In this document: positions 5,147-6,292 of the stretch, piece by piece
Layout: each line of letters begins with the position of its first letter
Numbering within the stretch: position 1 is the stretch's first letter
UHGV virus genome: UHGV-0192751
Direction: 5' to 3' (one strand)
Length of the DNA stretch: 12,489 nucleotides
From: a virus
Notes under the pieces: generated by a model
What the model saw: only the letters and a program-made list of their open reading frames with translations
Databases searched by the model: none
What the model was told of the DNA's origin: nothing
Position numbers and translations under genes: made by a program

Positions 5147-5497
5147 ATGGGTAAGGCCAAACTTCTAATTTGTGGTGTTCTTTTATCAGTTGTCGGCACG
5201 TCAGGGGCCTTAGCTGATACTCAGTGCGGGCCGTATCGCCTCACTGCGGGCAAAGAAGGACTAATGCTTATTAACGGGGTAAAACCTGAAACGCAAAAAA
5301 TGTCTTTTCTCAAGTCTAAAGATGACTACCAAAACATGAAAGCAGAATGGATGGTTGCAACCGACCAACCAGGTCGCTGGGTTGGGCTTGAGTACATCAA
5401 GCGCAACGGAAAAGCCATTCTCAACGCACAGTGGCTGCAAGCCAGCATGGATTCTCCGCGCCAGTATGCAACATACGACTGCGTGAAGGTTAAGTGA
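5147..5497 (+). CDS. Secreted (periplasmic) small protein of unknown function, accessory gene
   Basis: ATG at 5147, one base after the hub stop. N-terminus MGKAKLLICGVLLSVVGTSGALA-DTQ reads as a Sec signal peptide with an A-L-A cleavage site. The mature protein is about 94 aa with one Cys near each end (possible disulfide). The region looks more AT-rich than the flanks. The track's TTG start at 5087 was rejected. Confidence 0.6.
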   Translation: MGKAKLLICGVLLSVVGTSGALADTQCGPYRLTAGKEGLMLINGVKPETQKMSFLKSKDDYQNMKAEWMVATDQPGRWVGLEYIKRNGKAILNAQWLQASMDSPRQYATYDCVKVK

Positions 5498-5578
5498 TTC
5501 TTCGCATGATCAAAAAACCAGTGCCATTTCGATTTTCTTCACTGTTACAATGCGGGAAACATCAATAGAGCTCGGCGC

Positions 5579-5935
5579 ATGGACAAAGAAACAAGAAAGC
5601 AAATAGAGAGAGATCTCGATAATGAATTAATGAAAATGTTATCCGTTGTAACGATGGATAAGTTTTCCAGCTTTCTCGTGGAAAGAGGAATTGAAGGTTT
5701 AACATGTAAGGTGTGCGGCAGTGACGACATTGGTGTTCCTCTTATGGCTCCTATTGGGCATCAGGCTTTTTTAAATTATTCGAAAGTTGATGGCGGTGGA
5801 CCTCCGCACTCCCTTTATAATTATGAGTACAGGCTACCATGTAACAACTGCGGATTTGTGCATAGTTTCGCTGTTTACCCTGTGCTTAAATGGATAGAAG
5901 ATCAGGAGGGAGACGGTGGCTCAAAGGCAGACTGA
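5579..5935 (+). CDS. Hypothetical protein with two CxxC motifs (zinc-ribbon-like), accessory gene
   Basis: ATG at 5579 with no in-frame alternative start upstream (checked back to the stop at 5495-5497). Contains CKVC and CNNC about 41 residues apart. AT-rich coding sequence; weak ribosome-binding site. Confidence 0.5.
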   Translation: MDKETRKQIERDLDNELMKMLSVVTMDKFSSFLVERGIEGLTCKVCGSDDIGVPLMAPIGHQAFLNYSKVDGGGPPHSLYNYEYRLPCNNCGFVHSFAVYPVLKWIEDQEGDGGSKAD

Positions 5936-6008
5936 TAACGTAACGATGGGGAGATTCCCGCCGCTCAGAAAAAGAGAGGGTGGCGAACCACCAACAGGAG
6001 ACGATGAC

Positions 6009-6218
6009 ATGCAACAGCGAGTAAGGGAGCTTGAAAAAGACGTCCAGTCTATCAAGACAGACTTGGCTGTCATGAAATCAAATTACGCCACAAAAGAAGA
6101 CGTCAGCAACGCCAAGAACAGTATCATTATGTGGGTTGTCGGTGCGGTTATTTTTGCTCAATTAATACCTGCGCTTCCTGCAATCCTTGATGCCGTCAAA
6201 CGAATGTTGAGTGGCTAA
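6009..6218 (+). CDS. Small coiled-coil protein with C-terminal transmembrane anchor (XhlA-like architecture), accessory gene
   Basis: AGGAG at 5996-6000, 8 nt upstream of ATG 6009. The 69-aa product MQQRVRELEKDVQSIKTDLAVMK... ends in the hydrophobic stretch IIMWVVGAVIFAQLIPALPAIL. The track start at 5916 is GTG, has no ribosome-binding site and overlaps the upstream ORF. Confidence 0.55.
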   Translation: MQQRVRELEKDVQSIKTDLAVMKSNYATKEDVSNAKNSIIMWVVGAVIFAQLIPALPAILDAVKRMLSG

Positions 6219-6255
6219 CTAACAGCCAATTGCTTCAATCCATTCTTTGATCACT

Positions 6256-6281
6256 AACCCGCCGCCGAGCGGGTTTTTTTT
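6256..6281 (+). terminator. Rho-independent terminator closing the accessory island
   Basis: Stem CCCGC (6258-6262), loop CGCCGA, stem GCGGG (6269-6273), followed by eight T (6274-6281). Confidence 0.6.
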
Positions 6282-6292
6282 ATGGGGTTTTT

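What the first reader, a model, noticed from the sequence alone, without database searches (positions are those of the whole stretch)
5147..6292. Three-gene accessory island inserted between baseplate hub and spike genes
Tail and baseplate operons are normally tightly packed and conserved. Here three small genes sit between the hub-like gene and the spike gene: a Sec-secreted protein, a CxxC zinc-ribbon-like protein and a coiled-coil tail-anchored membrane protein. By eye they are clearly more AT-rich than the flanks, and the block ends with its own strong intrinsic terminator at 6256-6281, immediately before the spike ATG. A periplasmic, a cytoplasmic and a membrane component together, foreign in composition and outside the virion gene set, suggests an uncharacterised host-interaction module such as superinfection exclusion, lysis-timing control or a defence or anti-defence function.
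Basis: partly seen in the sequence, partly recalled or inferred. Interest (0 to 1): 0.72.

Follow-up and report, generated by a model that had tools for sequence, protein, structure and literature searches.

The report
Swappable accessory-gene slot in prophage baseplate
Between the baseplate hub and spike genes of this SEN34-like prophage lies a slot where related phages carry different small accessory genes; here it holds a widespread secreted protein plus a rare, uncharacterised two-gene cassette that other phages keep next to their repressor genes, so it is probably a lysogen-expressed phage-exclusion module.

Summary
Three real genes (A 5147-5497, B 5579-5935, C 5916-6218) lie between hub and spike. 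The block is 45.5% GC against 53.4% in the flanks, and a hairpin terminator sits just before the spike ATG.

The "one three-gene island" reading is only partly right.
- **Gene A**, a Sec-secreted 8-stranded beta-barrel (phrog_3443), is a near-constant resident after the hub in related E. coli, Klebsiella, Citrobacter and Salmonella (SEN34) phages.
- **The terminator** is kept in every relative whatever the cargo, with compensatory stem changes, so it belongs to the backbone.
- **Only B+C is swappable cargo.** Relatives carry Phd/Doc, DUF4236, lipoproteins or secreted proteins in the same slot.

B is a C4 zinc-ribbon protein. C is a tail-anchored coiled-coil protein with a beta-layer motif, which predicts a trimer. 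They form a conserved, translationally coupled pair. C homologues, and in two genomes the B-like/C pair, sit directly downstream of the cI-type repressor (the rexAB position, e.g. epsilon34 genes 45/44). In a Providencia phage the B-like/C pair sits downstream of mnt (the sieA position).

My best reading is a moron-type hotspot carrying an uncharacterised, lysogen-expressed, membrane-associated exclusion or abortive-infection pair. The function is inferred from position only. It is a new member of a known kind, of moderate interest.

The parts
4075..5145 (+). Baseplate hub gene, the conserved left backbone. Its last ~15 codons already fall in a mosaic segment.
   Evidence: phrog_196 baseplate hub E 1e-83. 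Pfam E217_GP41 E 4.7e-6. 90-96% nt identity to relatives up to ~5096-5105, or through to 5507.
5147..5497 (+). Gene A: a Sec-secreted 116-aa protein. The mature part is an 8-stranded up-and-down beta-barrel with two invariant Cys. It is a semi-conserved resident of the locus, with a variable N-terminal half and a nearly invariant C-terminal half.
5504..5551 (+). Non-coding leader of the cassette. It has a conserved 20-nt block (5504-5523) and an extended -10-like element, TG at 5543-5544 with TACAAT at 5546-5551. This is a candidate autonomous promoter for B-C.
   Evidence: The blocks are kept between the E. coli and Klebsiella cassettes even though the cassette region as a whole aligns at only ~70-74% nt identity. 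The generic promoter scan did not call it because the -35 is weak. Function is inferred, not shown.
5579..5935 (+). Gene B: an acidic 118-aa cytoplasmic protein with N-terminal helices and a C4 zinc-ribbon-like domain (CxxC...CxxC). It is the upstream partner of C.
5916..6218 (+). Gene C: a 100-aa protein made of a variable N-tail, a Gly/Pro-rich linker, a coiled coil with an invariant S-N-Y-A-T-K-x-D beta-layer motif, and a C-terminal transmembrane helix. It is predicted to be a tail-anchored trimer.
   Evidence: 142 or more homologous clusters. Alignment invariants. The family profile matches the Tcar0761 MATKDD beta-layer constructs 5APZ/5APX. Motif definition from PMC4786415. Hydrophobic segment at residues 66-95 by the 19-residue hydropathy window.
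6256..6283 (+). Intrinsic terminator hairpin with T-run. It forms the conserved right border of the variable slot, 10 nt upstream of the spike ATG.
   Evidence: Present in all 8 aligned relatives with different cargo. 100% pairing with 2 compensatory pairs.
6293..7033 (+). Baseplate spike gene, the conserved right backbone.
   Evidence: Pfam spike N-terminal domain E 8e-41 plus GpV Apex motif. 92-98% nt identity to relatives from ~6246-6275 onward.

Best explanation
**What it is.** The hub-spike junction of this SEN34-like (Brunovirus-type) temperate myophage is a hypervariable accessory-gene slot, a moron-type hotspot.

Its fixed frame has three parts:
- the hub gene;
- usually gene A, a Sec-exported small beta-barrel translated right behind the hub;
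- a conserved intrinsic terminator immediately before the spike gene.

Different phages carry different cargo between A's stop codon and that terminator.

**The cargo here.** It is a rare, AT-rich two-gene cassette, B-C, probably with its own extended -10 promoter. B is a soluble C4 zinc-ribbon protein. C is a tail-anchored inner-membrane protein whose cytoplasmic stalk is predicted to be a parallel trimeric coiled coil with a beta-layer. The two genes overlap, so they are probably made together and act as a complex.

**Likely function.** Homologous pairs in other temperate phages sit in the two classic lysogen-expressed exclusion slots: directly downstream of the cI-type repressor, where lambda has rexA-rexB, and downstream of mnt, where P22 has sieA. 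I therefore infer that:
- B-C is expressed from the prophage;
- it acts at the inner membrane to exclude or abort infection by other phages, with B as sensor or adaptor and C as membrane effector;
- the conserved terminator stops this lysogenic transcription from running into the spike and later tail genes.

**Gene A.** A is an independent module. It is a periplasmic protein made with the tail genes, most plausibly also envelope-acting (entry or receptor interference).

**Shown versus inferred.** Gene structure, composition, hotspot behaviour, backbone terminator, pair conservation and positional associations are shown. Promoter activity, lysogenic expression, topology, trimerisation, B-C interaction and any exclusion phenotype are inferred.

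**Confidence.** The single figure of 0.6 blends about 0.85-0.9 for the hotspot anatomy with about 0.4 for the exclusion function.
For: **Hotspot.**
- 53 of 5,426 complete E. coli genomes and Citrobacter phage Omnitron share hub and spike at ~90-96% identity. None covers 80% or more of the query, because the middle differs.
- Cargo in the slot:
  - A + Phd/Doc
  - A + DUF4236 on the opposite strand
  - A + a 53-aa ORF
  - an A variant + a 181-aa protein
  - an A variant + a 128-aa secreted protein
  - A + a 3-TM protein + a 70-aa protein
  - an A variant + a 106-aa secreted protein
  - a 371-aa lipoprotein without A
  - a 240-aa lipoprotein + a 53-aa ORF without A
- SEN34 and Mulock show the same layout.
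- Breakpoints fall at A's stop (5497-5507) and at 6246-6275.

**Terminator.** It is conserved with compensatory changes.

**Composition.**

**B-C as cargo and as a pair.**
- B-C is absent from all complete E. coli genomes and from the phage collection at DNA level.
- It occurs in the same slot in an E. coli draft genome, in metagenome contigs and in Klebsiella michiganensis prophages.
- A C homologue preceded by a partner gene (8-nt overlap in the sampled prophage loci, 14 nt in epsilon34) lies directly downstream of an S24/HTH repressor in Pantoea, Yersinia (two species), Enterobacter and Pandoraea. In Pandoraea and Chromobacterium the partner ORF is present but uncalled.
- The same arrangement lies downstream of mnt in a P22-like Providencia prophage.
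- In annotated phage epsilon34, genes 45 and 44 lie between repressor gene 46 and OL/PL. Its authors described them as being in the repressor operon "like rexA and rexB" and expected them to be expressed from the prophage (PMC2629481).
- Partners fall into two families: B-like zinc ribbons (Providencia at 33% identity, E 1e-16; SPN3UB gp24; Pandoraea and Chromobacterium as motif-level resemblance only) and a 136-157-aa cysteine-poor family (Pantoea, Yersinia, Enterobacter, epsilon34 gp45). SPN3UB gp25 and the Klebsiella ST101-KPC2phi6.1 partner are called C-like by shared architecture and adjacency only; they lack the YATK motif and tblastn with C did not find them.

**Envelope theme.** Most cargo proteins in the slot carry Sec or lipoprotein signals or TM helices.

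**C architecture.** Invariant YATK-x-D motif, a profile match to solved trimeric beta-layer constructs, and the motif definition [aliphatic]-A-T-K-[polar]-[DE].
Against: - No experiment or expression data exist for any of these genes.
- No PADLOC defence model matches A, B or C. The alternative cargoes give only weak Doc-related hits.
- The promoter is a consensus-level inference with a weak -35, and the generic scan did not call it.
- The positional argument is guilt by association. In this window the cassette is inside a late structural operon, not next to a repressor.
- Slots downstream of repressors also carry non-defence lysogenic-conversion genes.
- A three-helix TM bundle is small for a pore.
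- C's topology is uncertain. The charges flanking its TM helix mildly favour C-in, although the 12 positive charges in the N-domain argue for N-in.
- No relative with an empty hub-spike junction was seen, so a simple insertion was not demonstrated.
Confidence: 0.6

Rival explanations
1. One reading: A, B and C form one three-component system (periplasmic, cytoplasmic and membrane parts) acquired as a single island.
For: The three genes are adjacent, on the same strand, all lower in GC than the flanks, and predicted to sit in three different compartments.
Against: - A occurs with at least seven other cargo types.
- B-C occurs with three different A alleles or A fusions (L006, L007, window) and, in Klebsiella L010, with two unrelated secreted proteins and no detectable A homologue.
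- C and its partners occur elsewhere with no A at all.
- The homology breakpoint falls exactly between A and B.
Confidence: 0.06
2. B-C is an addiction or toxin-antitoxin-like pair: C is a membrane-damaging toxin and B its antidote. Its main role would be to stabilise the prophage rather than to exclude other phages.
For: - It has two small overlapping genes with the soluble acidic protein first, the usual antitoxin-then-toxin order.
- The same slot holds a Phd/Doc TA pair in E. coli ECONIH5.
- Membrane-anchored small proteins are often toxic.
Against: - No homology to known TA families.
- C is far more conserved than its partners, which come from two unrelated families. That fits an effector with interchangeable sensors better than a cognate toxin-antitoxin pair.
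- TA and abortive-infection roles are not mutually exclusive.
Confidence: 0.12
3. C is an XhlA/holin-accessory-type lysis protein and B-C tunes lysis timing.
For: - Weak PHROG match of C to the 'hemolysin' family phrog_1193 (E 4e-4).
- UniRef labels one homologue 'Hemolysin XhlA'.
- The architecture (coiled coil + C-terminal TM) is the same as I recall for XhlA; this was not checked here.
Against: - No Pfam XhlA or DUF1640 hit for C or for 32 homologues.
- In none of the roughly 12 contexts sampled is the pair next to holin, endolysin or spanin genes. It sits by repressors or in accessory slots.
Confidence: 0.05
4. The genes are structural or assembly factors of the baseplate, for example chaperones of the hub or spike.
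For: - They are located inside the tail operon.
- A is translationally coupled to the hub and nearly always present.
- In E217, hub gp41 and spike gp43 are also separated by an ORF, gp42.
Against: - B-C is absent from most relatives, which have near-identical hub and spike.
- A is exported by a Sec signal, whereas tails assemble in the cytoplasm. A is also missing in some relatives.
- E217 gp42 is unrelated to A and is not among the virion proteins described.
Confidence: 0.05
5. B-C is a lysogenic-conversion module that alters host physiology (envelope stress, virulence, competition) and is not directed at phages.
For: It has the same positional and moron-like features as in the best explanation. 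Repressor-proximal and tail-operon morons include non-defence genes such as lambda bor and lom (established knowledge).
Against: Nothing specific. The distribution across gamma- and beta-proteobacterial temperate phages from varied hosts suggests a phage-centred rather than a host-niche-specific role.
Confidence: 0.15

Closest known systems
Phage morons and hotspots inside tail operons, e.g. the HK97 gp15 superinfection-exclusion moron and the P2 Z/fun hotspot next to baseplate/tail genes (Juhala 2000, Cumby 2012 and Rousset 2022, as cited in bioRxiv 10.1101/2024.10.15.618418)
   Same: Accessory genes of foreign composition sit between conserved tail genes. They are present or absent among close relatives, followed by a terminator, and drawn from an exchangeable cargo repertoire that includes a TA system.
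   Different: - The junction is different (hub-spike of SEN34-like myophages), and I found no description of it.
- The terminator belongs to the backbone rather than to each cargo.
- No empty site was seen.
- A semi-conserved secreted protein (A) shares the slot.
- The cargo is dominated by envelope-targeted proteins rather than known defence systems.
Lambda RexA-RexB (abortive infection pair in the cI operon)
   Same: Homologues of C with a partner occupy exactly the rexAB position (repressor - partner - C - OL/PL - N), as noted for epsilon34 genes 45/44. Both systems pair one soluble protein with one membrane protein.
   Different: - No sequence or Pfam similarity.
- C has one TM helix and a coiled coil, whereas RexB is polytopic (my recollection; not checked here).
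- B is a small protein with a predicted zinc-ribbon domain.
- In this window the pair is in the tail operon, not the immunity region.
- No phenotype is known.
P22 SieA (superinfection exclusion, encoded beside mnt in immI)
   Same: The Providencia P22-like prophage carries a B-like/C pair directly downstream of mnt, where P22 has sieA (the contiguity of sieA, orf59a and mnt is stated in PMC10883804). Both are inner-membrane proteins by prediction.
   Different: C is unrelated in sequence to SieA. SieA acts alone, while C always has a coupled partner.
DUF1640 / XhlA-type coiled-coil membrane proteins and alpha/beta coiled coils with beta-layers (Hartmann et al. 2016, PMC4786415)
   Same: Both have a coiled coil with an A-T-K-polar-acidic beta-layer motif and a C-terminal TM helix. 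The C-family profile matches the solved Tcar0761 beta-layer constructs.
   Different: C gives no Pfam DUF1640 or XhlA hit and has Tyr instead of an aliphatic residue before A-T-K. The trimeric state is predicted, not shown.
Envelope-acting, tail-region-encoded exclusion proteins such as T5 Llp and phi80/N15 Cor lipoproteins (established knowledge)
   Same: A and many alternative cargoes are Sec- or lipoprotein-exported small proteins encoded among tail or receptor-binding genes.
   Different: There is no sequence or fold evidence linking A to Llp or Cor. A is a soluble periplasmic barrel, not a lipoprotein, and its function is untested.

Membership tests
Moron (Juhala/Hendrix sense) | Present in some phages and absent or replaced in close relatives that share the flanking genes | tested here: met
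   B-C is replaced by other cargo in relatives with 90-96% identical hub and spike. B-C is absent from 5,426 complete E. coli genomes.
Moron (Juhala/Hendrix sense) | Nucleotide composition distinct from neighbouring genes | tested here: met
   44.2% GC against 53.4% in the flanks, with no flank window as low. GC3 is 0.39-0.49 against 0.55-0.63.
Moron (Juhala/Hendrix sense) | Own promoter allowing expression from the repressed prophage | tested here: inconclusive
   An extended -10-like TGtTACAAT element and a 20-nt upstream block are conserved between the E. coli and Klebsiella cassettes. The -35 is weak, the generic scan did not call it, and there are no expression data.
Moron (Juhala/Hendrix sense) | Own downstream terminator | tested here: inconclusive
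   A good terminator follows C, but it is shared by all relatives whatever the cargo. It belongs to the backbone, not to the cassette.
Moron (Juhala/Hendrix sense) | Flanking genes directly adjacent in some relative (an empty site) | tested here: not met
   None of about 20 relatives examined has the hub directly followed by the spike.
RexAB | Sequence homology to RexA or RexB | tested here: not met
   No Pfam, NCBIfam or PADLOC hit for B or C.
RexAB | Encoded in the repressor operon between cI and OL/PL | tested here: not met
   Not so in this window, where the pair is in the tail operon. It is so for C homologues in epsilon34, Pantoea, Yersinia, Enterobacter and Pandoraea prophages.
RexAB | Abortive-infection or exclusion phenotype | not testable with these tools
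   This needs phage challenge of cells expressing B-C.
Known anti-phage defence systems (PADLOC-DB v2) | HMM match to a catalogued defence protein | tested here: not met
   No families at E<=1 for A, B or C.
XhlA (Pfam) / DUF1640 (Pfam) | Pfam model match at or near the gathering score | tested here: not met
   Neither family is listed for C at E<=1 or for 32 family members at E<=0.01. The only signals are phrog_1193 'hemolysin' at E 4e-4 and source-given names on two distant homologues.
Alpha/beta coiled coil (beta-layer) proteins | [aliphatic]-A-T-K-[polar]-[D/E] motif within a coiled-coil register | tested here: met
   Y-A-T-K-E-D in C, with S55 N56 Y57 A58 T59 invariant and K60, D62 at 90% or more in 32 homologues. 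The profile aligns to the MATKDD constructs 5APZ/5APX. Motif definition. The first position is aromatic rather than aliphatic.
Alpha/beta coiled coil (beta-layer) proteins | Parallel trimeric assembly | not testable with these tools
   Only monomer prediction was available. This needs multimer modelling, SEC-MALS or cross-linking.
PHROG phrog_3443 (gene A) | Full-length HMM match | tested here: met
   E 2.8e-45 over residues 6-116 against profile positions 5-114 of 115. The family has no known function.
STY1065/STY2022 family phage-derived protein (RefSeq name) | Match to the NCBI model or rule behind the name | tested here: inconclusive
   WP_042043841.1, 76% identical to A, carries this name in one RefSeq record. 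The NCBIfam release 20 scan of A returned nothing. No paper uses these names for this family.
Periplasmic lysozyme / lytic-transglycosylase inhibitors (MliC/PliC/Ivy): considered for A | Pfam match or close fold match | tested here: not met

The most novel reading that the evidence does not exclude
B-C, together with its relatives such as epsilon34 gp45/gp44 and SPN3UB gp24/gp25, is a previously unrecognised and widespread family of two-component prophage immunity systems.

C would be a conserved, trimeric, tail-anchored coiled-coil membrane effector. It would be coupled to interchangeable cytoplasmic sensor proteins, either a zinc-ribbon type or a 136-157-aa cysteine-poor type.

The system would be functionally analogous to RexAB and would move between at least three lysogen-expressed slots: downstream of cI, downstream of mnt, and the hub-spike junction.
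Probability: 0.35. Interest if true: 0.7.

Novelty: new member of a known kind. Interest (0 to 1): 0.5.

Why it matters
- **A new, cleanly bounded hotspot.** It runs from A's stop codon to a conserved terminator in a common family of enterobacterial temperate myophages (SEN34-like). It could be mined for envelope-acting exclusion or defence genes in the way the P2 hotspots were.
- **A testable candidate.** The B-C pair has gone unnamed since epsilon34 genes 44/45 were flagged in 2008 as rexAB-like by position with "no matches". It now links about 150 C-family clusters, about 55 small proteins among the 58 B-family profile hits, known phages and three lysogenic slots.
- **A structural prediction.** C is predicted to be a membrane-anchored trimeric alpha/beta coiled coil, and this can be checked.
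- **If nothing comes of it.** If the pair has no exclusion phenotype, the locus remains an ordinary moron site.

Tried and rejected
- **Near or distant DNA matches to B-C.** None in 5,426 complete E. coli genomes or 50,697 phage records. Context came instead from protein-level look-ups.
- **Family scans.**
  - Pfam, NCBIfam and PADLOC gave nothing meaningful for A, B or C.
  - The EMP24/GOLD hits for C (16 of 32 members, E ~1e-4, below the cut-off) are coiled-coil/TM look-alikes and were dismissed.
- **Fold searches.**
  - The afdb50 library was unavailable.
- **A as an MliC/PliC/Ivy-like inhibitor of the tape measure's SLT domain.** No support.
- **E217 gp42 as an A equivalent.** It has no signal peptide and is unrelated.
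- **A LexA box in the B leader.** Rejected by eye: CTGT is present but there is no ACAG eight bases downstream.
- **Literature.** No paper uses STY1065 or STY2022 for this family. The XhlA plus exclusion search was not followed into the XhlA papers and gave no functional lead.
- **B-family profile search.** The 58 hits at E<=0.001 are mostly stand-alone proteins of 108-166 aa. The three hits to long proteins (1,020-2,973 aa) are multi-stretch repeat matches that I treat as spurious. There are no informative domain fusions.
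Full report
**1. What the window is**

The window is the tail and baseplate module of a temperate myophage. In order, the genes are:
- tape measure with an SLT domain (1148-3163);
- Dit-like protein (3163-3765);
- Pam3-gp18-type plug (3767-4072);
- baseplate hub (4075-5145; phrog_196, weak E217 gp41 match);
- the three small genes of the finding;
- spike (6293-7033; spike N-domain plus Apex motif);
- a 45-aa ORF;
- sheath initiator/wedge, J-like and wedge genes;
- tail fibre and its chaperone;
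- an invertase.

The same order is annotated in Salmonella phage SEN34 (Brunovirus) and Klebsiella phage Mulock. It also occurs in prophages of E. coli, Klebsiella and Citrobacter.

**2. Checking the observation**

*Genes.* The ORFs are as described.
- A is 5147-5497. Its ATG is one base after the hub stop.
- B is 5579-5935.
- C is 5916-6218, with a GTG start behind an AGGAGG Shine-Dalgarno. It overlaps B by 20 nt.

All three are real genes, with conserved homologues and PHROG families of unknown function.

*Protein features.*
- A has a signal peptide with an (A/S)-x-A site in most of the 36 aligned sequences and two invariant cysteines.
- B has four cysteines as CxxC...CxxC, invariant among close homologues.
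- C has a coiled coil and a single C-terminal hydrophobic helix.

*Composition.*

| Region | GC | Comparison |
|---|---|---|
| Block 5147-6292 | 45.5% | flank mean 53.4%; no flank window of equal size as low |
| Cassette 5498-6292 | 44.2% | flank mean 53.3%; no flank window as low |
| Gene A alone | 48.4% | 4% of flank windows are as low |

GC3 is 0.50 (A), 0.39 (B) and 0.49 (C), against 0.55-0.63 for structural genes. B and C have the lowest codon-usage similarity to the structural genes.

*Terminator.* It has a 7-bp stem with 5 G-C pairs, a 6-nt loop and T8.

**3. The locus is a variable slot, and the three genes are not one unit**

Hub and spike are 90-96% identical in 53 complete E. coli genomes and in Citrobacter phage Omnitron. 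No record covers 80% or more of hub-to-spike, because the middle differs.

| Relative | Content between hub and spike |
|---|---|
| E. coli ECONIH5 | A + Phd/Doc toxin-antitoxin |
| E. coli 873.10, FJ_Ec_21 | A (a disrupted partial copy in FJ_Ec_21) + DUF4236 protein on the opposite strand |
| E. coli G3/10 | A + 53-aa ORF |
| E. coli LR-33 | A variant + 181-aa Cys-rich protein |
| Citrobacter phage Omnitron | A variant + 128-aa secreted protein |
| E. coli AF20, UPEC 26-1 | A + 3-TM protein + 70-aa protein |
| E. coli strain 81 | A variant + 106-aa secreted protein |
| E. coli AR_0118 | 371-aa lipoprotein, no A |
| E. coli M172-1 | 240-aa lipoprotein + 53-aa ORF, no A |

DUF4236 is the commonest cargo: 13 of the 30 best records listed.

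*Borders.* Pairwise alignment places the left border at A's stop codon; homology to ECONIH5 ends at 5507. The right border is at 6246-6275.

*The terminator is backbone.* It is present upstream of the spike ATG in every relative, whatever the cargo. The stem changes in a compensatory way: CCCGC/GCGGG, CCAGC/GCTGG, GCCGC/GCGGC. Pairing is 100% with 2 compensatory pairs, against 24-53% when the partner columns are slid.

*Gene A.* It is a near-constant resident, present in about 20 of 23 relatives sampled, at 34-97% identity. It occurs at the same position in SEN34, Mulock and several Klebsiella and E. coli phages.

*Mosaicism of A.* A itself is mosaic:
- its C-terminal half is almost invariant across genera;
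- the last ~15 hub codons, the signal peptide and A's N-terminal half vary;
- in two contigs the A domain is the C-terminus of a 296-aa lipoprotein.

*Conclusion.* Only B-C is swappable cargo in the strict sense. It is rare: absent from 5,426 complete E. coli genomes and from the phage collection at DNA level. It is found in the same slot in one E. coli draft genome, in metagenome contigs and in Klebsiella michiganensis prophages, at 72% (B) and 87% (C) amino-acid identity.

**4. What the proteins are**

*A.*
- AlphaFold gives a confident 8-stranded up-and-down beta-barrel (pLDDT 83).
- No viral model matches significantly.
- No Pfam, NCBIfam or PADLOC hit.
- One RefSeq record names a 76%-identical homologue "STY1065/STY2022 family phage-derived protein". 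A GenBank phage record calls a homologue "putative exported protein".

*B.*
- It is acidic (pI 5.0).
- The model shows two N-terminal helices, a small beta domain carrying the four cysteines and a C-terminal helix (pLDDT 75).
- A profile search finds 58 representative clusters. Almost all are stand-alone proteins of 108-166 aa.

*C.*
- The order of parts is a variable N-tail, a Gly/Pro-rich linker, a "DM" start of the coiled coil, an invariant S-N-Y-A-T-K-x-D motif, A-K-N-S-I-I-x-W-V-V and the TM helix.
- A profile of the family matches the crystallised Tcar0761 "MATKDD" constructs (5APZ/5APX, E 4e-4 and 2e-3).
- Hartmann et al. 2016 showed that [aliphatic]-A-T-K-[polar]-[D/E] forms a beta-layer in parallel trimeric coiled coils. 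They noted the motif in DUF1640 membrane proteins (PMC4786415).
- I therefore predict a tail-anchored trimer with an alpha/beta coiled-coil stalk.
- N-in topology is inferred from the 12 positive charges in the N-domain and the lack of a signal peptide. The charges flanking the TM helix are ambiguous.

**5. Where the pair lives elsewhere**

This is the key evidence. A C homologue is always preceded by a partner gene that overlaps its start. The overlap is 8 nt in the sampled prophage loci and SPN3UB, 14 nt in epsilon34, 17 nt in Klebsiella and 20 nt here.

| Host or phage | Position of the pair |
|---|---|
| Pantoea, Yersinia enterocolitica, Y. pseudotuberculosis complex, Enterobacter, Pandoraea | Directly downstream of, and co-oriented with, the S24/HTH prophage repressor; in the Pantoea loci N, cIII and recombination genes follow |
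| Salmonella phage epsilon34 (fully annotated) | Genes 45/44 between repressor gene 46 and the annotated OL/PL |
| P22-like Providencia prophage | Directly downstream of the mnt-like Arc-family gene, between ant/tailspike and the ejection-protein genes |
| SPN3UB (gp24/gp25) and a Klebsiella siphophage | An accessory region next to an Arc/Ant module, upstream of the tape measure |

[quoted passage not shown] The Providencia position is where P22 has sieA; sieA, orf59a and mnt are contiguous (PMC10883804).

In SPN3UB and the Klebsiella siphophage the downstream protein shares C's architecture (Gly-rich linker, coiled coil, C-terminal TM) but lacks the YATK motif, and tblastn with C did not detect it. 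These two are C-like by architecture and adjacency only.

Partners fall into two unrelated families:
- B-like zinc ribbons: here, Klebsiella, Providencia (33% identity, E 1e-16) and SPN3UB gp24. The uncalled ORFs in Pandoraea and Chromobacterium are assigned here only on their CxxC...CxxCGY pattern (BLASTP E 0.15-0.39, 24-25% identity).
- A 136-157-aa cysteine-poor family: Pantoea, Yersinia, Enterobacter and epsilon34 gp45.

C is much the more conserved member of the pair.

**6. Mechanism, with its status**

*Shown.*
- A bounded variable slot.
- A backbone terminator under structural selection.
- Foreign composition of the cargo.
- A conserved, overlapping two-gene module.
- Its recurrent placement in lysogen-expressed accessory positions.
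- A cargo repertoire at this slot dominated by exported, lipoprotein or membrane proteins, plus one TA system.

*Inferred.*
- B-C is transcribed in the lysogen from its own promoter. An extended -10-like TGtTACAAT at 5543-5551 and a 20-nt block at 5504-5523 are conserved between the E. coli and Klebsiella cassettes, although the cassette region as a whole aligns at only ~70-74% identity. The generic scan did not call this site.
- The backbone terminator stops this transcription before the spike gene. Late transcription must then read through or be antiterminated.
- B and C form a complex at the cytoplasmic face of the inner membrane.
- The complex excludes or aborts infecting phages, with C as the constant membrane effector and B, or the alternative partner family, as the specificity or sensor subunit.

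I put about 0.85-0.9 on the hotspot/moron anatomy and about 0.4 on the exclusion/abortive-infection function.

*Gene A.* A is a separate module. It is exported and is translated directly behind the hub, with a promoter-like site 100 nt upstream inside the hub gene. I suggest it acts in the envelope, for example by interfering with entry or receptor use by related phages or by protecting progeny. This is speculation guided only by its location and by the envelope theme of the slot.

**7. Rivals**

The rivals, scored in their own section, are:
- a single three-part system, contradicted by the co-occurrence data;
- a TA or addiction pair, which is plausible and not exclusive of abortive infection;
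- an XhlA-like lysis accessory, with weak similarity only and never found beside lysis genes;
- structural or assembly proteins, which fits neither the rarity of B-C nor the export of A;
- non-phage-directed lysogenic conversion.

**8. Comparison with known systems and novelty**

The anatomy is that of a moron or hotspot within a tail operon, a known kind (HK97 gp15, P2 Z/fun). I found no description of this particular junction or of the B-C family beyond the 2008 remark on epsilon34. B-C fails every membership test for RexAB, SieA, XhlA/DUF1640 (Pfam) and the PADLOC systems. It resembles RexAB in position and in pairing a soluble with a membrane protein.

Verdict: a new member of a known kind, of moderate interest. 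The main value is a testable candidate two-gene exclusion family and a cleanly bounded hotspot.

**9. Limits**

- There are no expression, phenotype or multimer-structure data.
- The context sampling is small: about 12 C-family contexts and about 23 hub-spike junctions.
- The signal peptide and TM calls are heuristic.
- The afdb50 fold library was unavailable.

Noticed in passing
window 7034-7261: A second small indel locus lies between spike and sheath initiator. It has a hairpin with a T-run (about 7050-7090, AAAGCCCCG...CGGGGCTTTTT) followed by a 45-aa single-TM ORF (7121-7258, phrog_6632 E 3e-21). The roughly 228-nt segment is absent in ECONIH5, 873.10 and G3/10, where the spike is followed directly by the next gene. 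It is present in LR-33, L006 and SEN34 (SEN34_23).
   Followed up: partly
window 5096-5345: A mosaic segment lies upstream of the main slot. The last ~15 hub codons, A's signal peptide and A's N-terminal half are swapped among relatives (breakpoints at 5096-5105 and 5270/5345). A's C-terminal half is nearly invariant across genera. This could reflect diversifying selection on one face of the barrel, or use of the 3' half as a recombination anchor.
   Followed up: partly
L007 946-1836 and L009 491-1381: A 296-aa predicted lipoprotein (lipobox LLVTGC) carries the gene-A domain as its C-terminal ~95 residues, directly upstream of the same B-C cassette. The A domain is therefore modular and can be lipid-anchored.
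   Followed up: no
window 5504-5546: The conserved 20-nt block GCATGATnAAAnAACCAGTG ends in AACCAGTG. This forms an inverted repeat with CACTGTT at the -10 region. The spacer between the arms is not conserved between E. coli and Klebsiella. It may be an operator or a regulatory hairpin controlling the cassette.
   Followed up: no
window 6256-6292: A conserved intrinsic terminator sits 10 nt upstream of an essential structural gene in the middle of the tail operon. This implies that late transcription is terminator-resistant or that read-through is regulated. No antiterminator lies in the window.
   Followed up: no
L020 5745-6008; L029 3709-4008: Cysteine-rich ORFs with a B-like CxxC...CxxCGY pattern (87 and 99 aa), overlapping the start of the C homologue, are not called as genes in the Pandoraea pnomenusa and Chromobacterium violaceum contigs. 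These are annotation gaps that hide the pairing.
   Followed up: yes
window 9750-12489: The distal tail-fibre region is AT-rich (42-46% GC). It is followed by a reverse-strand 117-aa ORF (11449-11802) and an ORF resembling a Hin/Gin-type invertase (from 11987). This suggests an invertible host-range segment.
   Followed up: no
L034 (phage E217) 12595-13128: In the structurally solved phage E217, hub gp41 and spike gp43 are also separated by an ORF, gp42 (177 aa, no signal peptide, unrelated to A). The virion structure paper does not mention it. A non-virion gene at this junction may be an old feature of this baseplate type.
   Followed up: partly
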